Of a DNA stretch of 64,000 nucleotides, positions 36,352 to 44,366 are shown one piece after another. The translations under genes and the position numbers were made by a program. Source of the stretch: Eubacteriales bacterium (lineage in GTDB: Bacteria; Bacillota; Clostridia; Oscillospirales; CAG-272). Within the stretch, counting starts at the first letter, position 1, and every line of letters starts with the position of its first letter. The stretch is from contig JBGVPY010000022.1 of the NCBI GenBank assembly GCA_045127235.1, positions 102,889-166,888 on the forward strand. Reading direction: 5' to 3'. The notes under the pieces were generated by a model. That model was not told where the DNA came from, ran no database searches, and saw only the letters and a program-made list of their open reading frames with translations.

Positions 36352-36462
36352 AAAATTTGCTCCTTTCGTTTGATATAACTATTATAACACAATTTGTTGA
36401 TTTTTTCAAATTGTTTTTCGCCAAAAGCAACCTATGGTTAACAAATGTAAACCTGCGGTTGC

Positions 36463-36491
36463 TTGACTTTATAAGTTTAATATGCTATACT
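36463..36491 (+). promoter_or_regulatory. Sigma-A type promoter of the downstream lipoprotein gene
   Basis: TTGACT-17 nt-TATACT with a TGn extension, ~50 nt upstream of the ATG at 36543. Confidence 0.55.
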
Positions 36492-36542
36492 TATAATGCA
36501 TTCAATGATAATCATTTTAATTTCACAAGGAGAAAGACAAAC

Positions 36543-37442
36543 ATGCATAAACACTTAAAACTATTTTGCATTCTTATTATAGTTTTAATCTGCATTTCTT
36601 TAATTTCTTGTACTAATGATAAGGAACAACAAGAAATCATAAATGCTTTTAATGGTTTTGAATACAACTACAATTACATTTTACAAACACCTGATGAATT
36701 TCACTTAGGAAAGCTTGTTATTCCTAATTCAGAGTTAAAATATAACGGTTATTGGTGTAAATTTTTAACTTCTACAGACACATGCGCCTACGGATATGCC
36801 ACCAATGAAGACAGGACAGTCGCTTATATAGTAAGCCTTGATTATAAAAGTTTAGACATTTCTTTGTGTGTAGAAGTAGCCCTTCCATCAGATTTGATTT
36901 ATGCATCATTTTATAATAATTCCTTTTATTTTCGCACTAATGATCCATCAACAGAAGAATTTAAACAAATGTTCACACTATATGATATGACAACTCAAAA
37001 AATTTCACAAAGTAATACCGACAATATAGATTTAATAGAACATAGAGAAATCTTTAAATGCGGAGATTACGAATTTAGTTGTCCTGATTTTCCACTCTCT
37101 GGTAGCCTTAAAATGGAAATAAAAAACACAAAAACAAATACAATAAAAAAGTTTTCTACAAAAGTCTTAAAAAATTGTGAGGAAGGCAAAATTATATGTA
37201 AACTCCCTGAGAGCAACATAAATTTAGGTGGAACACCAAGCGATGTTGATGTTATCGGAGATGATATTTATATTTTGTGCTATCAATCAGTTGGCTTTTT
37301 AGGTTATCCGTCTTATTATTTTATAGTGAAATATAATTTCCATACTGAAAACATTGAATATTATTCAACAATTTATTTTGAAAATGACCCCGATACATAC
37401 TTTTTTTACATACCAAGAGAAATCATTTTAGAGGACTCATAA
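36543..37442 (+). CDS. Hypothetical lipoprotein
   Basis: The internal ATG at 36543 follows RBS AAGGAGA. Signal peptide with lipobox LISC. No family recognised. Confidence 0.65.
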   Translation: MHKHLKLFCILIIVLICISLISCTNDKEQQEIINAFNGFEYNYNYILQTPDEFHLGKLVIPNSELKYNGYWCKFLTSTDTCAYGYATNEDRTVAYIVSLDYKSLDISLCVEVALPSDLIYASFYNNSFYFRTNDPSTEEFKQMFTLYDMTTQKISQSNTDNIDLIEHREIFKCGDYEFSCPDFPLSGSLKMEIKNTKTNTIKKFSTKVLKNCEEGKIICKLPESNINLGGTPSDVDVIGDDIYILCYQSVGFLGYPSYYFIVKYNFHTENIEYYSTIYFENDPDTYFFYIPREIILEDS

Positions 37443-37468
37443 AATCAAAGCTATATAATGTATCAAAA

Positions 37469-37512
37469 GCAAAAAAACAGACACAAGGTCAACCTTGTGT
37501 CTGTTTTTTTGC
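37469..37512. terminator. Bidirectional rho-independent terminator between convergent genes
   Basis: GCAAAAAAACAGACACAAGG-tcaa-CCTTGTGTCTGTTTTTTTGC, a perfect 20-bp stem. Confidence 0.9.
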
Positions 37513-37520
37513 TATATAAA

Positions 37521-38519
37521 TTATTTGTTTGATTCTTCAACAGCAACTGCAACTGCAACAGTCATACCAACCATTGGGTTGTTACCAGCGCCTATAAGAC
37601 CCATCATTTCTACGTGAGCTGGAACTGAGGATGAGCCAGCGAATTGAGCGTCGCCGTGCATACGTCCCATTGTGTCAGTCATACCGTAGGAAGCAGGACC
37701 TGCAGCCATGTTATCTGGGTGAAGTGTTCTACCTGTACCGCCGCCTGAAGCAACTGAGAAGTAGTTTACACCGTTTTCGTTACACCACTTCTTGTATGTG
37801 CCTGCAACTGGGTGTTGGAATCTTGTTGGGTTTGTTGAGTTACCTGTGATAGATACGCCAACGTTTTCAAGTCTCATGATAGCAACGCCTTCTGGAACGC
37901 TGTCAGAGCCGTAGCACTTAACGTCTGCTCTTGGACCCTTTGAGTATGGAGTTTCAGATACAACCTTAACCTCTTCAGTAGCGTTGTCAAATTCTGTTTC
38001 AACAAATGTAAAGCCGTTGATTCTTGAAATAATCATAGCTGCATCCTTGCCAAGACCGTTAAGAATAACTCTTAATGGCTTAACTCTTACCTTGTTTGCG
38101 TTAAGAGCGATTTTAATAGCGCCCTCAGCAGCAGCGAAGGATTCGTGACCTGCTAAGAAGCAGAAGCACTCTGTTTCCTCAGAAAGAAGCATCTTACCGA
38201 GGTTACCGTGGCCTAAACCAACCTTTCTGTTCTCTGCAACTGAGCCAGGGATACAGAATGCTTGGAGACCGATACCGATTGCAGCAGCAGCGTCAGCAGC
38301 CTTTGTGCAACCCTTCTTAATAGCGATAGCTGCGCCTACTGTGTAAGCCCAAACTGCGTTTTCAAAACAAATTGGCTGTGTTTCTCTTACGATTTTGTCA
38401 CAGTCGATGCCCTTTGCAAGAGTGATTTCCTTACACTCTTCAACGGACTTAATACCATATTCAGCGAGAACTGCATTGATTTTATCAATTCTTCTCTCAT
38501 ATCCTTCAAATAATGCCAT
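37521..38519 (-). CDS. 'GGGtGRT'-motif protein (conserved protein of unknown function)
   Basis: 332 aa. SGGGTGRT is encoded at 37725-37748 (minus strand), followed by LHPDNMAAGPASYGMTDTMGRMH. From memory, RefSeq names this family 'GGGtGRT protein'. Codon usage is visibly GC3-richer than in neighbouring genes. Confidence 0.65.
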   Translation of the reverse strand: MALFEGYERRIDKINAVLAEYGIKSVEECKEITLAKGIDCDKIVRETQPICFENAVWAYTVGAAIAIKKGCTKAADAAAAIGIGLQAFCIPGSVAENRKVGLGHGNLGKMLLSEETECFCFLAGHESFAAAEGAIKIALNANKVRVKPLRVILNGLGKDAAMIISRINGFTFVETEFDNATEEVKVVSETPYSKGPRADVKCYGSDSVPEGVAIMRLENVGVSITGNSTNPTRFQHPVAGTYKKWCNENGVNYFSVASGGGTGRTLHPDNMAAGPASYGMTDTMGRMHGDAQFAGSSSVPAHVEMMGLIGAGNNPMVGMTVAVAVAVEESNK

Positions 38520-38533
38520 CTTTTCAGTCCTCC

Positions 38534-39226
38534 TTACTCTTCTCTTGGGTCGATGTAACGAACTGCATCGTTAAATCTGCCGTATGTACCCATTGACTTC
38601 TTGTAAGCCTCGTTTGGCTCCATGCCCTTCTTGATGAAGTCTGTCATTTTGCCGAGAGATACGAATTCGTAACCGATAACTTGGTCGTTTTCGTCAAGAG
38701 CCATTCTTGTGCAGTAGCCCTCTGTCATTTCAAGGTAACGAACGCCCTTTGCATTAGTACCGTACATTGTACCTACCATTGAACGAGCACCCTTACCTAA
38801 GTCTTCCATACCTGCGCCGATAACAAGACCGCCCTCAGAGAAAGCAGATTGTGTTCTACCGTAAACGATTTGGAGGAAGAGCTCACGCATAGCTGTGTTG
38901 ATAGCGTCGCAAACTAAGTCTGTGTTGAGAGCTTCAAGTAATGTCTTGCCAGGAAGGATTTCTGCTGCCATAGCTGCAGAGTGAGTCATACCTGAGCAAC
39001 CGATAGTTTCAACGAGAGCTTCCTCGATGATACCGTCTTTTACGTTAAGTGAAAGCTTACAAGCGCCTTGTTGTGGTGCACACCAACCGATACCGTGTGT
39101 GTAGCCTGAGATGTCTGTGATTTGCTTTGCCATTACCCATTTGCCTTCTTCAGGAATTGGAGCTGGACCGTGCTTAGGTCCCTTGGCAACTGTACACATG
39201 TGTTCTACTTCTTTTGAATAAATCAT
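38534..39226 (-). CDS. IscU/NifU-N-like scaffold-fold protein with C-terminal extension, partner of the GGGtGRT protein
   Basis: 230 aa. ETIGCSGMTHSAAMAAEILPGKTLLEA resembles the IscU GCG...A..L.GKT..EA block. Additional Cys residues (GWCAPQQGAC). RBS GAGGAGA. Confidence 0.5.
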   Translation of the reverse strand: MIYSKEVEHMCTVAKGPKHGPAPIPEEGKWVMAKQITDISGYTHGIGWCAPQQGACKLSLNVKDGIIEEALVETIGCSGMTHSAAMAAEILPGKTLLEALNTDLVCDAINTAMRELFLQIVYGRTQSAFSEGGLVIGAGMEDLGKGARSMVGTMYGTNAKGVRYLEMTEGYCTRMALDENDQVIGYEFVSLGKMTDFIKKGMEPNEAYKKSMGTYGRFNDAVRYIDPREE

Positions 39227-39261
39227 ATGTATTCTCCTCGAATTAAAATTTTTTCGTATCT

Positions 39262-39290
39262 ATTATACATTATTTTTGTTGCAAAATCAA
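39262..39290 (-). promoter_or_regulatory. Sigma-A type promoter of the IscU-like/GGGtGRT operon
   Basis: Minus strand reads TTGATT-17 nt-TATAAT, ~35 nt upstream of the ATG at 39226. Confidence 0.55.
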
Positions 39291-39415
39291 CATATTTATT
39301 AAAAAAATATTAAATTGTGATAAGGGTAAAAAATAGCCTATAAAATAATAAAATATTATTTACTTTATATAAAAAGTATGGTATAATATACCGTGAATTG
39401 GTAGGTGATTTTTGT

Positions 39416-40126
39416 ATGCGTCTTGATAAATTTTTATCTAACATGGGAAAGGCCTCGCGAAGCGAAAGCGGCAGGCTTGCACGATGCGGTAAAATTACGG
39501 TAAACGGCGTTATTGTAAAAAAAGCAGATATACATATTGATGAAAGCAAGGATATTATATGTGTAAATGGCGTTACTGTAAATTATAAAAAATACGCTTA
39601 CATTATGTTAAATAAGCCTGAGGGATATGTTAGCGCAACTGATGATGACAGAGAAAAAACCGTCCTTGATTTGTTGCCTGATGAGGAAAGAAGGCTAAAT
39701 TTATTCCCTTGTGGAAGGCTTGACAAAAACACCTTGGGTTTAGTTATTTTAACTAACGATGGGGATAGCGCACATAAATGTCTTTCTCCCAAGCACCATG
39801 TGGACAAGATATATAAATTTGAGTGTAAGCTCCCTCTCACTTACGAAAATGTGCAAGCCCTTGAAAAGGGCGTTGACATTGGCGGATATTTAACTAAGCC
39901 ATGTAAAATTTCAATGTATAATGAGACAAGCGGAGAAATTACGCTTACTGAGGGAAAATATCATCAAATTAAGCGTATGCTTGAGGCGGTTGATAATAAG
40001 ATAACATATCTTGAAAGAATAACATTTGGCGGTATTAAGCTTGATAGCTCCTTAGCGCGTGGAGAATGGCGATATTTAACCGCAGATGAGGAAGCACTGT
40101 TTATAAACGGTGGCAATAAAGGATAA
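39416..40126 (+). CDS. rsuA: 16S rRNA pseudouridine synthase, RsuA/RluB family (S4 domain + catalytic domain)
   Basis: S4 domain MRLDKFLSNMGKASRSE; catalytic block FPCGRLDKNTLGLVILTNDG; also KYHQIKRM. The internal ATG at 39416 lies downstream of an extended -10 TGgTATAAT (39379-39388). Confidence 0.8.
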   Translation: MRLDKFLSNMGKASRSESGRLARCGKITVNGVIVKKADIHIDESKDIICVNGVTVNYKKYAYIMLNKPEGYVSATDDDREKTVLDLLPDEERRLNLFPCGRLDKNTLGLVILTNDGDSAHKCLSPKHHVDKIYKFECKLPLTYENVQALEKGVDIGGYLTKPCKISMYNETSGEITLTEGKYHQIKRMLEAVDNKITYLERITFGGIKLDSSLARGEWRYLTADEEALFINGGNKG

Positions 40127-40129
40127 AAG

Positions 40130-41200
40130 ATGAAAAAATATATTTTACCAAGCAATGTGAATTGGTACAGAGCAAACATGCACTGCCATTCAAACATATC
40201 TGATGGCAGCTTTACGCCTGATAAAATTAAAAAGGTGTATAAGGAAATGGGATATTCTATTGTGGCTTTTACCGACCATGATATTTTGCTTGACCATTCA
40301 TATTTAAATGATGATAGCTTTTTAGCTATTACTTCAAGTGAATATACCGTATATGCTGATGGCACTTATTATCCCAAGCTATATAACGGCGAATTTGAGG
40401 ATGAGCAAACAAAGATAGATGATGATTGGCGCAGAAGTAAGGTAATGCACCTTTGTGTTTATTCTAAGGACCAACACAATGAATTTCAAGTGGCAGCTGA
40501 TGAATATTCATTATGGCCACAAAGAGGTAAATGGAGAAACACAGGAAAATGCGATGGGTATCACAGAAGCTTTTCAGCCGAAAGCATCAATGAAGCAATT
40601 AGGCGACTTAATAAGGCGGGCTTTTTCGTTCAGTTAAATCATCCAAACTGGTCTCTTAATGAGCATGATGATTACATAAATTTAAAGGGGCTTTGGTCAG
40701 TTGAAATTTTCAACTATGCAAATGAAAGATTAACAGGTGCTGAATACTGTCCTTACATATATGACGATATGGTACGAAACGGCATGTATAATTTAAAATG
40801 CACTATGGGAGATGACAATCACAACAGCGGTGGCGAAACGGAATTATGCTTTGGCGGCTCTACATTTTTTGGCGCGACCGAGCTAACATACGATAACATT
40901 ATTGAATGTATGGAAAAGGGTAATTTTTACTGTGCAAGCGGTAAAAATCCGCCTCAGATTAAAGCTCTTTATGTTGAGGACAATATAATTAAGGTTGACT
41001 GCTCTTCTGCTACCGATGTTTTCATAACGGGGTACTCCAGAAGATTTAGACATGTAAGCGGAGAGGATATTACTCATGCTGAGTTTAGATTAAGGCCTGA
41101 GGATGTGTTCTTCCGTATTACTGTAAGAGATAAGTATGGCAACAATGCTCATACTAATTATTATAATGTGAAAGATTTTTATGAGGAGATAAATAAATAA
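40130..41200 (+). CDS. PHP-domain metal-dependent phosphoesterase paralog 1 (CehA/McbA- or TrpH-like)
   Basis: NWYRANMHCHSNISDG (HxH..SDG), AFTDHD, QLNHPNWS, MGDDNHN, and C-terminal FRITVRDKYGNNAHT. Starts 3 nt after the rsuA stop. Confidence 0.7.
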   Translation: MKKYILPSNVNWYRANMHCHSNISDGSFTPDKIKKVYKEMGYSIVAFTDHDILLDHSYLNDDSFLAITSSEYTVYADGTYYPKLYNGEFEDEQTKIDDDWRRSKVMHLCVYSKDQHNEFQVAADEYSLWPQRGKWRNTGKCDGYHRSFSAESINEAIRRLNKAGFFVQLNHPNWSLNEHDDYINLKGLWSVEIFNYANERLTGAEYCPYIYDDMVRNGMYNLKCTMGDDNHNSGGETELCFGGSTFFGATELTYDNIIECMEKGNFYCASGKNPPQIKALYVEDNIIKVDCSSATDVFITGYSRRFRHVSGEDITHAEFRLRPEDVFFRITVRDKYGNNAHTNYYNVKDFYEEINK

Positions 41201-42246
41201 TGAAAAAGTACATTATTTCACCTGAGCTTAATTGGTACAGAGCGAACATGCACTGCCACACAACTGTTTCCGATGGACACTATTCCCCTGAGGAAATTAA
41301 AAAGCATTACAAGGAAATGGGATATTCTATTGTGGCTTATACGGACCACGAGATTATTCGTACACACAACGATTTAACCGATGATGAGTTCTTAGCAATT
41401 ACATCAAGTGAATTTTCCATAAACGATAACAAGCCATGCTTTGATATTCCAGAAGGAAAATACATGGAAGGCTGGCGTTCAAAGAAGGTTCTTCATTTTG
41501 GTGTTTATTCTAAGGACCCTAATAATACTTTCCATCCCGCAACAGGCGAGGGTACATTTAACTGGTGGAAGAGCCAAGGCAAGGATATGAATGGCATAGC
41601 CGTTGATGGATATGAGCGTGTATATACCCTTGAAAGCATAAATGAAACAATAAAAAGACTTAACGATAACGGATTTTTAGTTTCATTAAACCATCCAAAC
41701 TGGTCCCTTAACGATATGGATGATTACCTTAACATTAAAGGACTTTGGTCCCTTGAAATTTTAAACTATGCAACTGAAAGATTAACAGGTGCTGAATACT
41801 GTCCTTACATTTACGATCACATGGTAAGAGGCGGTAACCTTAATTTATTCTGCAATATGGGCGATGATAACCACAACCGTGGTGGCAGTCTTGACCATTC
41901 ATTTGGTGGCTCTACAATTATCGGAGCTAAGGAGTTAAAGTACGAGCAAATTATGAGTGCGCTTGAAAATGGTGAATTCTACTGTGCAAGCGGTAAAAAC
42001 CCACCTAAGATTAATGCTCTTTATGTTGAGGATAACGTAATTAAGGTTGACTGTTCTCCTGCCGTTGATGTAATTGTAACAGGCTTAGGCAGAAATTTCC
42101 GTCCTTACAACACTGACGGAAAAGAGGTTACTCATGCTGAATTCAAGATTGATAAGCAGGATATTATGTTCCGTGTTACTGTAAGAGATAAATACGGCAA
42201 CAACGCTCACACACATTACTACAAGGTTGATGATTTTATAAGCTAA
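41200..42246 (+). CDS. PHP-domain metal-dependent phosphoesterase paralog 2
   Basis: Same motif set (NWYRANMHCHTTVSDG, AYTDHE, SLNHPNWS, MGDDNHN). 1-nt TAATG overlap with paralog 1. Confidence 0.7.
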   Translation: MKKYIISPELNWYRANMHCHTTVSDGHYSPEEIKKHYKEMGYSIVAYTDHEIIRTHNDLTDDEFLAITSSEFSINDNKPCFDIPEGKYMEGWRSKKVLHFGVYSKDPNNTFHPATGEGTFNWWKSQGKDMNGIAVDGYERVYTLESINETIKRLNDNGFLVSLNHPNWSLNDMDDYLNIKGLWSLEILNYATERLTGAEYCPYIYDHMVRGGNLNLFCNMGDDNHNRGGSLDHSFGGSTIIGAKELKYEQIMSALENGEFYCASGKNPPKINALYVEDNVIKVDCSPAVDVIVTGLGRNFRPYNTDGKEVTHAEFKIDKQDIMFRVTVRDKYGNNAHTHYYKVDDFIS

Positions 42247-43296
42247 ATGAAAAAATATATTATTTCACCTGAGCTTAATTGGTATAGAGCAAATATGCAC
42301 TGCCATACAACAATTTCCGATGGTTATTTTTCTCCAAAAGAAATTAAGGAAAAATACAAGGAAATGGGCTACTCTATTGTAGCATATTCTGATCATGAGC
42401 TTATAAGGGATCATTCTTATTTAAATGATGATGACTTTTTAGCGATTACTTCAAGCGAGTTTTCTGTTGATGATACTGCTCCATCATTTGATTTACCGAA
42501 TAGTGTCGGGGATAATGATTGGTGTGCAAGAAAGGTAGTTCACTTAGGTGTTTACTCTAAAAATCCGCATAATACATTCCACCCCGCAACAGACAACACT
42601 CTTTTTGATATGTGGTGGAGAGCGCAAGGCAGAGACATTGGCGAGATAGAATGCGATAATTATCACAGAGAATATACAATTGAAGGTATAAACGAAATGA
42701 TAAGAAGGCTTAATGAAAACGGATTTTTAGTTTCATTAAACCATCCAAACTGGTCTCTTAACGATATGGATGATTACCTTAATTTTAAAGGGCTTTGGTC
42801 CCTTGAAATTTTAAACTATGCAACTGAAAGGTCAACCGGTGCTGAATACTGTCCTTATATTTATGACCATATGGTAAGACAGGGTAACTTCAATTTATTC
42901 TGCAATATGGGCGATGATAACCACAACCGTGGTGGCAGTCTTGACCATTCATTTGGTGGCTCTACTATTATTGGCGCTAAAGAATTAAAGTACGATCAAA
43001 TTATGAATGCACTTGAAAAGGGAGAATTTTACTGTGCAAGCGGTAAAAATCCACCTAAGATTAATGCTCTTTATGTTGAGGATAATATAATTAAGGTTGA
43101 TTGCTCACCTGCTACTGATGTAATTGTAACAGGCTTAGGCAGAAACTTCCGTCCTTATATTACAGAGGATTATGAGTTTACACATGCGGAATTTAAGCTT
43201 GACAAGCAAGATATTATGTTCCGTGTTACTGTAAGAGATAAATACGGCAATAATGCTCATACACATTACTACAAGGTTGATGATTTTTTAAGCTAA
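42247..43296 (+). CDS. PHP-domain metal-dependent phosphoesterase paralog 3
   Basis: Same motif set. Starts immediately after the stop of paralog 2. The 3' half is nearly identical to paralog 2 at nucleotide level. Confidence 0.7.
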   Translation: MKKYIISPELNWYRANMHCHTTISDGYFSPKEIKEKYKEMGYSIVAYSDHELIRDHSYLNDDDFLAITSSEFSVDDTAPSFDLPNSVGDNDWCARKVVHLGVYSKNPHNTFHPATDNTLFDMWWRAQGRDIGEIECDNYHREYTIEGINEMIRRLNENGFLVSLNHPNWSLNDMDDYLNFKGLWSLEILNYATERSTGAEYCPYIYDHMVRQGNFNLFCNMGDDNHNRGGSLDHSFGGSTIIGAKELKYDQIMNALEKGEFYCASGKNPPKINALYVEDNIIKVDCSPATDVIVTGLGRNFRPYITEDYEFTHAEFKLDKQDIMFRVTVRDKYGNNAHTHYYKVDDFLS

Positions 43297-43319
43297 GCAA
43301 ATAAATCAAGGAGATTAAA

Positions 43320-44366
43320 ATGAAAAAATACTTATTACCCGATGGCGTAAATTGGTATAGAGCCAATTTTCACTGTCATACGGTTCATTCAGATGGCGCT
43401 TACACTCCCGAAAAGGTAAAGGAAGTGTATAAAAATCACGGTTACTCAATAGTTGCTTATACTGACCATGATGTGCTTTTAGATCATTCCGATTTAAATG
43501 ATGAGGGATTTTTGGCACTTACAAGCTGTGAATATGCGGTAAATGAAGCGACGCCTAAATTTCCAAAAATTTTTGACACAGAAACGGGCGAATGGCAGAG
43601 AAAAAAATGCGTGCATTTGAACATATTTGCTAAGGAGCAGCATAACACATTTATGCCTGCAACTGCTGTTGAGCAGCAATGGATATTAAAAAACCGTTAT
43701 CCTGACACAAAATGCGATGGGTACTTCCGTGAATATTCTAAGGAAGGAATAAATGAAATTATTAAGCGTTGCAATGATGCAGGATTTTTGGTGCAATTAA
43801 ACCATCCCTATTGGTCTTTAAATGAGCGTGAGGACTATATCAACATGGAAGGTCTTTGGGGACTTGAAATTCTCAACTATGCAACTGAGCTTGAAACAGG
43901 AAGCGAATACTGTCCTTACATATATGATGATATGGTAAGAAACGGTATGTTCAATCTTGTTTGCACAATGGGTGATGATAATCACAATCACGGAGACAGC
44001 GTAAGAGAATCCTTTGGTGGTTCAACATTTATCGGTGCTTCGGAATTAAAGTATGATAAAATTATTGAGGCTATGGAAAAGGGACATATTTACTGTGCAA
44101 GCGGTAGAGATAATCCGCCTCAATTTAAGTCCTTATATGTTGAGGATAACAAAATTCACATTGAATGCACGCCTGTTGAAAACATTGTAATTAACGGCTA
44201 TGGCAGAAATGACAGACATATAACCGCTCCCGAAAATGAGACTATTACAAGTGCGGTGTTTGATTTAAGAGAGGGCGATGTTTACTTTAGAGTTACAATT
44301 CGTGATAAATTTGGAAATAACGCACACACTCACACATATTTCGTAAAGGATTACTTAGAAAAGTAA
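43320..44366 (+). CDS. PHP-domain metal-dependent phosphoesterase paralog 4
   Basis: NWYRANFHCHTVHSDG, AYTDHD, QLNHPYWS, MGDDNHN, FRVTIRDKFGNNAHT. RBS AAGGAGA. Confidence 0.7.
   Translation: MKKYLLPDGVNWYRANFHCHTVHSDGAYTPEKVKEVYKNHGYSIVAYTDHDVLLDHSDLNDEGFLALTSCEYAVNEATPKFPKIFDTETGEWQRKKCVHLNIFAKEQHNTFMPATAVEQQWILKNRYPDTKCDGYFREYSKEGINEIIKRCNDAGFLVQLNHPYWSLNEREDYINMEGLWGLEILNYATELETGSEYCPYIYDDMVRNGMFNLVCTMGDDNHNHGDSVRESFGGSTFIGASELKYDKIIEAMEKGHIYCASGRDNPPQFKSLYVEDNKIHIECTPVENIVINGYGRNDRHITAPENETITSAVFDLREGDVYFRVTIRDKFGNNAHTHTYFVKDYLEK

What the first reader, a model, noticed from the sequence alone, without database searches (positions are those of the whole stretch)
37521..39290. Two-gene operon of unknown function, possibly highly expressed: IscU-like protein + 'GGGtGRT'-motif protein
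The promoter is TTGATT-17-TATAAT. The first gene encodes a 230-aa protein with an IscU-like Cys block (ETIGCSGMTHSAAMAAEILPGKTLLEA) plus further Cys residues. After a 14-nt gap comes a 332-aa protein with SGGGTGRTLHPDNMAAGPASYGMTDTMGRMH and a Gly/Ala-rich C-terminus. The operon ends at a perfect 20-bp terminator. Both genes are visibly GC3-richer than their neighbours (ggt/cgt/aac/ttc-type codons), which could reflect highly expressed core genes. As far as I know the GGGtGRT family has no assigned function. Pairing with a scaffold-like Cys protein suggests a metal or Fe-S dependent activity.
Basis: partly seen in the sequence, partly recalled or inferred. Interest (0 to 1): 0.55.

Follow-up and report, generated by a model that had tools for sequence, protein, structure and literature searches.

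The report
Conserved Fe-S-like protein pair, function unknown
This is a real, strongly expressed two-gene operon encoding a remodelled IscU-type iron-sulfur protein and its obligatory 'GGGtGRT' partner. The pair is already catalogued, abundant and extremely conserved in anaerobes, but its function is still unknown; it is most likely an iron-dependent enzyme of central metabolism.

Summary
Two minus-strand genes (39226-38534, 230 aa; 38519-37521, 332 aa) sit 14 nt apart, with a TTGATT-17-TATAAT promoter, strong ribosome-binding sites and a 21-bp terminator (-32 kcal/mol). Gene 2 is a full-length member of Pfam PF14057 'GGGtGRT' (E 5e-193). Gene 1 has an IscU fold but fails the IscU family cut-offs and lacks canonical Cys37, Asp39 and LPPVK. 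Instead Cys49, Cys77, Cys106 and His44 are invariant.

The two genes are adjacent in all 106 loci examined, across five bacterial phyla and one archaeal family. Both proteins stay 65-95% identical while silent sites are saturated.

No solved structure, Pfam family or NCBIfam family resembles GGGtGRT. Literature up to 2026 still calls it uncharacterised, although it is abundant in gut and rumen proteomes and 7-13-fold lower under iron limitation.

Recurrent neighbours are PduL phosphotransacylase and, in a divergent clade, ApgM phosphoglycerate mutase plus a histidine phosphatase.

Best reading (about 0.4): an obligate two-subunit Fe-S enzyme acting on a small anionic or phosphorylated metabolite. 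Main rival (about 0.27): a desulfurase-independent Fe-S assembly or delivery module. It is a new member of a known, unexplained family.

The parts
39262..39290 (-). Sigma-70-type promoter: -35 TTGATT (39290-39285), 17-nt spacer, -10 TATAAT (39267-39262), preceded by an A/T-rich tract
   Evidence: 10 of 12 positions match. The same arrangement is present in the closest relatives L038 and L002. Not statistically distinctive by itself in this AT-rich region.
39234..39239 (-). Ribosome-binding site GAGGAG, 7 nt before the ATG of gene 1
   Evidence: Read directly from the sequence. GGAG-type sites occupy the same position in 73 relatives.
38534..39226 (-). Gene 1: 230-aa partner protein. Residues about 40-122 form a remodelled IscU-fold domain (invariant H44, C49, C77, C106; C56 in 86 of 87 sequences). 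Residues about 123-230 form a family-specific, Gly-rich C-terminal half.
38529..38535 (-). Ribosome-binding site AAGGAGG for gene 2, overlapping the TAA stop of gene 1 within and next to the 14-nt gap. This suggests translational coupling.
   Evidence: Read directly from the sequence. The gap is 12-23 nt in 80 relatives, and the genes overlap in the divergent clade.
37521..38519 (-). Gene 2: 332-aa GGGtGRT protein (PF14057). It has an N-terminal helical domain, a Rossmann-like alpha/beta core, the signature segment 258-318 (SGGGTGRT...GNNPMVG) and a C-terminal helix.
37459..37512 (-). Intrinsic terminator: 21-bp perfect stem with a 4-nt loop (37512-37469), followed by a T-tract. It is shared with the convergent ORF 36357-37442.
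   Evidence: (-32.2 kcal/mol, z = -9.57).

Best explanation
The operon encodes an obligate two-subunit iron-sulfur protein that works as a highly expressed enzyme of central anaerobic metabolism.

Inferred mechanism:
- The 230-aa subunit is an IscU-derived domain that no longer acts as a transient scaffold. It holds a permanent Fe-S cluster on Cys49, Cys77 and Cys106, with His44 or Cys56 as possible fourth ligands. This may leave one open or exchangeable coordination site.
- The 332-aa GGGtGRT subunit supplies a Rossmann-like core. Its strand-end glycine-rich loops (AGHESF, GLGK, TGNST, SGGGTGRT, GNNP) and invariant His, Arg, Lys, Asp and Glu residues (H104, H125, E126, R98, R145, K158, R166, R264, H267, R286, H288, H302) bind a small anionic substrate, probably a phosphorylated or acyl one.
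- The conserved Gly-rich segments of both subunits, which are poorly modelled in isolation, fold together around the cluster and substrate.

The most specific guess is a reaction at the lower-glycolysis / acyl-phosphate node (phosphoglycerate, PEP, acetyl-CoA or acetyl-phosphate). An Fe-S-dependent hydro-lyase or redox step is the kind of reaction envisaged.

Shown here: operon anatomy, family membership, IscU fold, invariant residues, strict co-conservation, strong purifying selection, codon bias. From the literature: high abundance and iron-responsive expression. Inferred: cluster binding, heteromer formation, substrate class, catalytic role.
For: Obligate pairing:
- The partner gene lies directly upstream in 106 of 106 loci.
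- These include Methanobacteriaceae, Collinsella, Parabacteroides, Bacteroides, Persicobacter and Vibrio loci, plus a clade only about 50% identical. Akkermansia carries a 76%-identical GGGtGRT protein, but its gene context was not examined.
- The two proteins diverge in parallel: amino-acid identity 0.89/0.80, 0.75/0.76, 0.67/0.65, 0.52/0.50.

Cluster site:
- IscU fold, Foldseek probability 1.0.
- C49, C77, C106 and H44 are invariant in 87 unique sequences.
- Asp39, which by general knowledge makes the IscU cluster labile, is deleted. Canonical Cys37 is replaced by Gln, and LPPVK/His105 are absent. This argues for a fixed rather than a transferable cluster.

GGGtGRT subunit:
- It has no invariant Cys but about 90 invariant residues rich in His, Arg, Lys, Gly, Ser and Thr.
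- The AF2 model (pTM 0.84) shows beta-strands followed by Gly-rich loops.

Selection:
- Four-fold degenerate sites are near saturation (identity 0.20-0.57) while amino-acid identity is 0.80-0.93.

Expression:
- NNC codon bias, z 3.3-4.0.

Iron response:
- BT0173-74 is 11-12.8-fold lower in iron-starved B. thetaiotaomicron.
- In C. pasteurianum, GGGtGRT is 7.1-fold and the adjacent NifU-related protein 2.4-3.7-fold higher at Fe+. They change together with PFOR, hydrogenase and aconitase and opposite to flavodoxin.

Metabolic context:
- PduL phosphotransacylase is next to the pair in 21 of about 80 Oscillospirales loci, in three different arrangements.
- The five-gene operon apgM / partner / GGGtGRT / membrane protein / His_Phos_1 is kept in two lineages whose GGGtGRT proteins are only 53% identical.
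- His_Phos_1 also lies downstream in a strain whose GGGtGRT protein is 99.7-100% identical to the window's.
- BT0173-4::Tn mutants were isolated together with pfkA mutants in a screen for loss of glucose repression of Cur.

No cysteine desulfurase is adjacent in any locus. The only one seen within the flanks searched (5-8 kb in most loci, 1-2.5 kb in five) is in Collinsella.
Against: - No homology to any characterised enzyme. Foldseek against PDB: best E 0.3, TM < 0.25. Profile against PDB sequences: nothing. No consistent weak Pfam hit in 49 members.
- Fe-S binding is not demonstrated. An IscU fold can instead bind Zn, as in SufU (general knowledge).
- In most lineages the pair stands alone among unrelated neighbours, so the pathway assignment rests on a minority of loci.
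- B. thetaiotaomicron transposon mutants grow normally on glucose, and the Roc effect is only 2-fold. The enzyme therefore cannot be an essential glycolytic step there.
- Repression by iron limitation and very high conservation are also properties of the canonical ISC scaffold (general knowledge: E. coli iscSUA is down-regulated via RyhB, and IscU is among the most conserved proteins).
- The signature segment 259-306 is modelled with pLDDT < 50, so no active-site geometry is available.
Confidence: 0.4

Rival explanations
1. A desulfurase-independent Fe-S cluster assembly, storage or delivery module. The IscU-like subunit would build or carry clusters, using free sulfide and Fe2+ that are available to anaerobes. 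GGGtGRT would be its dedicated partner, acting as a nucleotide-dependent release or chaperone factor, or as an iron or sulfur donor.
For: - IscU fold and weak NifU_N, IscU and SufU matches.
- Three invariant Cys, as in scaffolds.
- The N-terminal 'YS.EV' motif is kept, as in IscU.
- The SUF operon lies 1.9 kb upstream in Collinsella.
- The pair is an autonomous module with no pathway neighbours in most genomes.
- Its expression tracks the cell's demand for Fe-S proteins.
- Extreme conservation resembles that of IscU (general knowledge).
- Dispensability in B. thetaiotaomicron would fit an auxiliary system beside a main Fe-S assembly system such as SUF (the existence of such a system in B. thetaiotaomicron is assumed from general knowledge, not checked here).
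- The glycine-rich GGGTG-type loop could bind a nucleotide.
Against: - Scores lie below every curated IscU, NifU or SufU cut-off (20.8 vs 22; 22.4 vs 192.4).
- Canonical Cys37 is replaced, and Asp39, His105 and LPPVK are absent. The features needed for cluster lability and HscA/HscB-assisted release are therefore missing.
- No desulfurase, A-type carrier, ferredoxin or chaperone gene is adjacent in any of 106 loci; the only ones seen within the flanks searched are in the Collinsella SUF operon.
- The recurring neighbours are metabolic genes (PduL, ApgM, His_Phos_1), not Fe-S biogenesis genes.
- Vibrio carries the pair although, by general knowledge, it already has standard Fe-S systems.
Confidence: 0.27
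2. A redox or stress protein: an abundant iron-containing electron-transfer or detoxifying system (oxygen, peroxide, NO, or Fe-S repair) that is switched off to spare iron.
For: - Occasional neighbours are redox or defence genes: TlpA, OsmC and nitroreductase in Parabacteroides; rubredoxin in Methanobacteriaceae; desulfoferrodoxin about 1.9 kb downstream in L107; Mn-catalase CotJC directly upstream in L103.
- It is reported alongside rubrerythrins among commonly expressed proteins.
- It co-varies with rubrerythrin and desulfoferrodoxin in C. pasteurianum.
- It is dispensable for growth in vitro.
Against: - These neighbours differ from locus to locus, and none recurs.
- No flavin, haem or rubredoxin-type motif is present, and there is no similarity to known detoxifying enzymes.
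- The many invariant Arg, Lys and His residues and the phosphate-type loops fit metabolite binding better than simple electron transfer.
- The glucose/Cur phenotype is not explained.
Confidence: 0.13
3. A non-catalytic sensor or regulator that reports iron/Fe-S status or glycolytic state. The cluster would be the sensing element and GGGtGRT the metabolite-binding module.
For: - Transposon insertions change the output of the Cur regulon in glucose.
- The pair is iron-responsive.
- A FUR gene lies about 1.2 kb downstream in L105.
Against: - Abundance at the level of major metabolic enzymes and ribosomal proteins, together with strong translational codon bias, is atypical for regulators.
- There is no DNA-binding, kinase or signalling domain.
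- The Roc effect is only 2-fold and could be indirect.
Confidence: 0.07

Closest known systems
Pfam PF14057 'GGGtGRT protein' family (for example B. thetaiotaomicron BT0173, C. pasteurianum F502_05012)
   Same: Full-length match (640.6 bits, profile positions 1-326 of 327). Same signature motif and same NifU-like gene directly upstream.
   Different: Nothing of substance. This is another member, 92-100% identical to proteins already in public MAGs of Clostridia/Oscillospiraceae. The family itself has no known function or structure.
IscU / ISCU / NifU N-terminal Fe-S scaffold (PF01592, TIGR01999)
   Same: Same fold over about 100 residues, 22-28% identity, Foldseek probability 1.0. The 'GC' cysteine (IscU Cys63 = Cys77 here) and the 'GKT..EAL' helix are conserved.
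   Different: Scores lie below the curated cut-offs. Cys37 is replaced by Gln53, with new Cys49/Cys56 nearby. Asp39 is deleted, and His105 and LPPVK are absent. There is an extra, conserved 110-residue C-terminal half with no Pfam family. No desulfurase partner is adjacent; GGGtGRT is the obligatory partner instead.
Archaeoglobus fulgidus IscS-IscU complex (PDB 4EB5/4EB7)
   Same: Best sequence hit of the partner in the PDB (E 1.5e-4). By general knowledge, it is an example of an IscU-fold protein that holds a cluster at the interface with a larger partner protein.
   Different: The partner there is a PLP-dependent cysteine desulfurase. GGGtGRT is unrelated to it and has no invariant Cys to donate.
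Two-subunit Fe-S hydro-lyases (L-serine dehydratase alpha/beta; class I fumarate/tartrate hydratases)
   Same: Analogy only. These are two adjacent genes of roughly 220 and 300 codons, often free-standing, and are oxygen- and iron-sensitive, abundant enzymes of anaerobes acting on small anionic substrates through a 3-Cys cluster (general knowledge).
   Different: No sequence or fold similarity was detected. Here the cluster-binding subunit is IscU-derived, which is not known for any hydro-lyase.
SufU (Zn-dependent sulfur-transfer protein)
   Same: IscU fold with a conserved Cys set, and weak HMM matches. SufU shows that this fold can be re-purposed away from cluster scaffolding (general knowledge).
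   Different: Score 18.1 against a cut-off of 92.5 bits. The Cys pattern differs, there is no SufS neighbour, and there is an extra C-terminal domain.

Membership tests
Pfam PF14057 GGGtGRT | Whole-protein score above the Pfam gathering threshold, with full-length coverage of the model | tested here: met
   E 5.4e-193, 640.6 bits against a cut-off of 27; residues 4-329 match model positions 1-326 of 327.
Pfam PF14057 GGGtGRT | Signature motif GGGTGRT and the conserved C-terminal block (HPDN...GRMH...QFAGSSSVPAHVEM...GNNP) | tested here: met
   Residues 258-318. These columns are invariant in 96 unique sequences.
Pfam PF14057 GGGtGRT | Gene directly downstream of a NifU-like gene (an empirical hallmark, not a formal definition) | tested here: met
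   14-nt gap in the window. Partner upstream in 106 of 106 loci.
IscU / NifU_N scaffold (PF01592, TIGR01999, TIGR03419) | Score above the curated family cut-offs | tested here: not met
   PF01592: 20.8 against 22 bits. TIGR01999: 22.4 against 192.4. TIGR03419: 25.7 against 187.9.
IscU / NifU_N scaffold | IscU three-dimensional fold | tested here: met
   Foldseek against PDB: 15 hits with E < 1e-3, and 46 of the top 50 hits are IscU, ISCU2 or SufU. Probability 1.0, about 100 aligned residues. The query model is only of moderate confidence in this region (pLDDT 60-77).
IscU / NifU_N scaffold | Three cluster-ligand cysteines at the canonical positions (E. coli Cys37, Cys63, Cys106) | tested here: inconclusive
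   Cys63 aligns with Cys77. Cys37 aligns with Gln53, with non-canonical Cys49 four residues earlier and Cys56 three residues later. Cys106 could not be aligned by HMMER or MAFFT, although the partner's own Cys106 sits at the start of the last helix.
IscU / NifU_N scaffold | Asp39 (cluster lability), His105 and the LPPVK chaperone-binding motif | tested here: not met
   Asp39 falls in a gap. The LPPVK-His segment has no counterpart: 'NTDLVCDAIN' follows directly.
IscU / NifU_N scaffold | Genomic association with a cysteine desulfurase (IscS, NifS or SufS) | tested here: not met
   No desulfurase is adjacent in any locus. The only one seen within the flanks searched (5-8 kb in most loci, 1-2.5 kb in five) is in the Collinsella SUF operon, 1.9 kb upstream beyond a transposase gene.
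IscU / NifU_N scaffold | Transient assembly and transfer of an Fe-S cluster | not testable with these tools
   Needs anaerobic biochemistry.
Tubulin/FtsZ GTPases (considered because of GGGTG[ST]G-like and GAGxNPxVG-like loops) | Profile-level homology of the GTPase domain, with the motifs in the same order | tested here: not met
   hhalign of A2 against E. coli FtsZ: probability 1%. Only 12 residues align (GAGNNPMVG ~ GAGANPEVG), and the motif order is reversed.
HypD hydrogenase maturation scaffold (considered because of a PxHV-type motif) | Profile-level homology | tested here: not met
   hhalign of A2 against E. coli HypD: probability 0.1%.

The most novel reading that the evidence does not exclude
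The pair is a new class of Fe-S enzyme in which an IscU-derived domain has become the permanent catalytic cluster carrier. It would catalyse an unrecognised, iron-dependent step of central carbon metabolism in anaerobes, for example an Fe-S route at the phosphoglycerate/PEP or acetyl-CoA/acyl-phosphate node. That would explain why it is as conserved and abundant as core housekeeping proteins across five bacterial phyla and gut methanogens.
Probability: 0.12. Interest if true: 0.85.

Novelty: new member of a known kind. Interest (0 to 1): 0.55.

Why it matters
GGGtGRT and its partner are among the most conserved and most abundant proteins of gut and rumen anaerobes that still have no function.
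- Conservation: 65-80% identity between Bacillota, Bacteroidota, Actinomycetota, Verrucomicrobiota, Vibrio and Methanobacteriaceae, with silent sites saturated.
- Abundance and regulation: they appear in many metaproteomes and respond strongly to iron.

Assigning a function would fill a gap in models of anaerobic metabolism or Fe-S homeostasis of the microbiome. It would also show a new use of the IscU fold.

This analysis turns the puzzle into testable statements:
- the two proteins form an obligate heteromer;
- Cys49, Cys77, Cys106 and His44 are the cluster ligands;
- the scaffold-specific features (Asp39, LPPVK) are lost;
- GGGtGRT has no conserved Cys but has a His/Arg-rich, phosphate-loop-type site;
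- the recurring partners are PduL, ApgM and a histidine phosphatase.

Tried and rejected

2. Foldseek against PDB for GGGtGRT: no hit (best E 0.3).

3. Sequence and profile searches of GGGtGRT against PDB sequences: only noise (guanylyl cyclase, ferritin; E >= 0.02).

4. Weak-hit Pfam scans found nothing consistent. These covered 49 family members, the isolated N-terminal and C-terminal segments of GGGtGRT, and the C-terminal half of the partner.

5. Leads from motif resemblance were rejected by hhalign: HypD (PxHV motif) and FtsZ/tubulin (GGGTG and GAGxNPxVG loops).

6. The 317-aa neighbour in the divergent operon is not a GGGtGRT paralogue. It is a membrane protein with two TM helices and no family match.

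7. An inter-subunit cluster using GGGtGRT Cys202 as the fourth ligand was weakened. Cys202 is Val in Akkermansia and Ser in one other sequence.

8. Rosetta-stone fusions: every longer 'GGGtGRT' protein examined is a metagenome assembly chimera or an internal duplication.

9. Self-processing at the conserved Ser-Ser (pyruvoyl idea) is disfavoured. The name of the antibody SC-L10B5-35K1 suggests a band of about 35 kDa, which would be full length. This is weak evidence.

10. Riboswitch or leader RNA: no Rfam match upstream of the pair in the window or in 9 relatives.

11. Recent horizontal transfer as the cause of the high identity was rejected, because four-fold degenerate sites are near saturation.

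12. Mobility: the 'plasmid' hits are chromids or mislabelled chromosomal contigs, all typed non-mobilizable. The phage-collection hits are unannotated faecal contigs.

13. Upstream regions of 73 relatives were compared by eye for a shared regulatory motif. Only the promoter and ribosome-binding-site elements stood out; no formal Fur, PerR, Rex or cre scan was run.
Full report
**Observation**

- They are separated by 14 nt. AAGGAGG overlaps the stop codon of gene 1, and gene 1 is preceded by GAGGAG 7 nt before its ATG.
- TTGATT-17-TATAAT is present at 39290..39262. Promoter-like hexamer pairs are common in this AT-rich stretch (19 found, 14.0 +/- 4.2 expected). The same layout does recur in the two closest relatives, L038 and L002.
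- The terminator at 37512..37469 folds into a 21-bp perfect stem (-32.2 kcal/mol, z = -9.6). It lies between convergent genes.
- Raw GC3 is only mildly raised: 0.37 and 0.43 against 0.32 +/- 0.05.
- C-ending codons at two-fold pyrimidine positions are strongly enriched: 0.75 and 0.83 against 0.36 +/- 0.12, z 3.3 and 4.0. This is the expected mark of translational selection.

**What the proteins are**

Gene 2 is a complete member of Pfam PF14057 'GGGtGRT' (E 5.4e-193).
- It has no NCBIfam model.
- It has no relative among PDB sequences, either as a single sequence or as a profile.
- An AlphaFold2 model built from 49 sequences (pLDDT 78.7, pTM 0.84) shows an N-terminal helical domain and an alpha/beta core whose strands end in glycine-rich loops. 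The family signature, residues 259-306, is modelled below pLDDT 50.

Gene 1 gives only sub-threshold matches to NifU_N, IscU and SufU.
- Its model is poor overall (pLDDT 56.8) because the alignment is shallow.
- Residues about 40-122 match IscU, ISCU2 and SufU structures with probability 1.0.
- Alignment to IscU shows that Cys63 is kept as Cys77, canonical Cys37 is Gln53, and Asp39 falls in a gap. The LPPVK-His105 segment is missing.
- Cys49, Cys77, Cys106 and His44 are invariant in 87 unique sequences, and Cys56 is present in 86 of them.
- The C-terminal 110 residues match no Pfam family.

GGGtGRT has no invariant cysteine. Its roughly 90 invariant positions are rich in Gly, His, Arg, Lys, Ser and Thr.

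**Conservation and co-conservation**

- Each protein has at least 8000 database relatives, and the best 120 are 86-100% identical.
- Among 1.84 billion representatives clustered at 50% identity, the only intact full-length sequences among the 150 best hits are P0244 (76% identical) and P0276 (50% identical). P0244's cluster includes an Akkermansia protein. The rest of that list are fragments, frameshifted reads or chimeras.
- Homologues 67-79% identical occur in Parabacteroides, Bacteroides, Phocaeicola, Persicobacter, Collinsella, a Vibrio second replicon and a Methanobacteriaceae MAG.
- The partner gene lies directly upstream in every one of 106 loci. The gap is 12-23 nt, or there is a short overlap. 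In one locus the partner is cut to its last 33 codons at what looks like an assembly junction.
- The two proteins diverge in parallel. Four-fold degenerate sites are near saturation (identity 0.20-0.57) while protein identity stays at 0.80-0.93. The similarity therefore reflects very strong purifying selection, not recent transfer.

**Genomic context**

In most lineages the pair is a free-standing unit among unrelated genes. Three associations recur.

1. A PduL-type phosphotransacylase (PF06130) is next to the pair in 21 of about 80 Oscillospirales loci. It is directly upstream in 17, directly downstream in one, and one gene away in three. The PduL proteins are 58-90% identical to one another.
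2. The divergent clade has a five-gene operon: ApgM-type phosphoglycerate mutase (above the equivalog cut-off, 517 against 489 bits), partner, GGGtGRT, a two-TM membrane protein, and a His_Phos_1 phosphatase/mutase. The operon is kept in two lineages whose GGGtGRT proteins are only 53% identical.
3. A His_Phos_1 gene also follows the pair in a strain whose GGGtGRT protein is 99.7-100% identical to the window's.

Cysteine desulfurase genes are absent from the neighbourhoods examined, apart from a SUF operon 1.9 kb away in Collinsella. No known riboswitch or leader RNA precedes the pair.

**Literature**

Thirteen papers in the library mention GGGtGRT, and none assigns a function.
- It is present in rumen metaproteomes (PMC7035244).
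- It is an immunodominant antigen of Segatella copri whose role 'remains unclear' (PMC12078515).
- B. thetaiotaomicron BT0173-74 falls 11-12.8-fold under iron deprivation (PMC10434189).
- In C. pasteurianum, GGGtGRT is 7.1-fold and the adjacent NifU-related protein 2.4-3.7-fold higher with excess iron. They change together with PFOR, hydrogenase and aconitase and opposite to flavodoxin (PMC5395762).
- Transposon insertions in BT0173-4 came out of the same screen as pfkA insertions for loss of glucose repression of the regulator Cur. They gave a 2-fold effect and no growth defect (bioRxiv 10.64898/2026.04.10.717545).

**Interpretation**

The strict pairing, parallel divergence and translational coupling point to an obligate heteromer (inference). 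So does the fact that the most conserved, Gly-rich segments of both proteins are the parts that cannot be modelled in isolation.

The IscU-derived domain keeps three invariant Cys and one invariant His. It has lost the residues that make the IscU cluster labile and chaperone-releasable. This fits a permanent cluster better than a scaffold.

GGGtGRT, with strand-end phosphate-type loops and many invariant His, Arg and Lys residues but no conserved Cys, looks like the substrate- or nucleotide-binding subunit.

High abundance, iron-sparing regulation alongside PFOR and hydrogenase, links to PduL, ApgM and a histidine phosphatase, and the pfkA-like phenotype together favour an Fe-S enzyme of central carbon or energy metabolism acting on a small phosphorylated or acyl substrate (confidence about 0.4). 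The specific node is much less certain.

The main rival is a desulfurase-independent Fe-S assembly or delivery module (about 0.27). Iron-limited repression and extreme conservation are also properties of canonical ISC components, and the pair is autonomous and dispensable. A redox or stress role (about 0.13) and a sensor role (about 0.07) are less well supported.

**Comparison with what is known, and novelty**

The GGGtGRT gene is an ordinary member of PF14057.

The partner works from an IscU fold but should not be filed as IscU, NifU or SufU. The curated score cut-offs, Asp39/His105/LPPVK and desulfurase linkage were all tested and not met.

The family is already catalogued and has been noticed as an abundant unknown, so the window adds a new member of a known kind. 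What is unusual is the family itself: conservation comparable to core housekeeping proteins, no structural or sequence relatives, and no function.

**Limitations**

- No structure of the complex could be predicted.
- The alignments have low diversity because the family barely varies.
- Only Foldseek against PDB was available for fold comparison.
- The related loci come mostly from gut MAGs of one order, plus single examples from other phyla.

Noticed in passing
window 40130-44366 (+): Four tandem paralogous genes (356, 348, 349 and 348 aa), 54-80% identical to one another. The only domain hit is a weak, sub-threshold PHP match. Function unknown.
   Followed up: partly
L081 5997-10606; L105 3006-7548: A divergent GGGtGRT clade (47-52% identical to the window protein) sits in a conserved five-gene operon: ApgM phosphoglycerate mutase, NifU-like partner, GGGtGRT, a 315-317-aa two-TM protein with no family match, and a His_Phos_1 protein. 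It is found in two lineages with different surroundings.
   Followed up: partly
L019 6675-7250; L063 6687-7256; L039 9166-9729 and 18 other loci: A PduL-type phosphotransacylase gene is adjacent to the pair in 21 of about 80 Oscillospirales loci. In several it forms a three-gene same-strand cluster flanked by opposite-strand genes. The window has no such gene within its 64 kb.
   Followed up: yes
L096 6800-6991 (Parabacteroides distasonis): A 63-aa ORF predicted to have two TM helices lies between the partner gene and GGGtGRT. It is absent in Bacteroides finegoldii, where the gap is 19 nt.
   Followed up: partly
L046 7932-9047 (-); L019 8004-8906 (-); L063 7983-8906 (-): Long antisense ORFs (300-371 aa) run across the GGGtGRT gene in at least 12 relatives. 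They can out-compete the true gene in naive ORF calling. They are probably a by-product of the gene's codon bias, not genes.
   Followed up: no
P0001, P0003, P0010, P0121, P0241, P0253, P0275, P0328 and others: Public protein collections contain many chimeric 'GGGtGRT' or partner proteins. Some have internal duplications. Others are joined at arbitrary points to Tex, SusD, GuaA, ParC, IMPDH or ABC-ATPase sequences. They look like metagenome mis-assemblies across a very conserved, high-coverage gene.
   Followed up: yes
window 36357-37442 (+); L100 2125-2748; L102 2153-2995: Strains encoding a GGGtGRT protein 99.7-100% identical to the window's differ in the gene just downstream. The window has a low-GC (0.29) ORF of unknown function with no Pfam match, L100 has a His_Phos_1 gene, and L101/L102 have a radical-SAM/SPASM gene. 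This is a variable spot next to a very stable operon.
   Followed up: no
L101 885-1000: In one contig the partner gene is reduced to its last 33 codons and joined to unrelated sequence. This is either an assembly junction or a rearrangement. It is the only locus without a full partner gene where sequence was available.
   Followed up: partly
window 39398-40126 (+): An S4-domain pseudouridine synthase gene (RsuA/RluB type) is transcribed divergently from the operon. It has its own TTTACT-17-TATAAT promoter with a TG extension. The same neighbour is present in L100 and L102.
   Followed up: no
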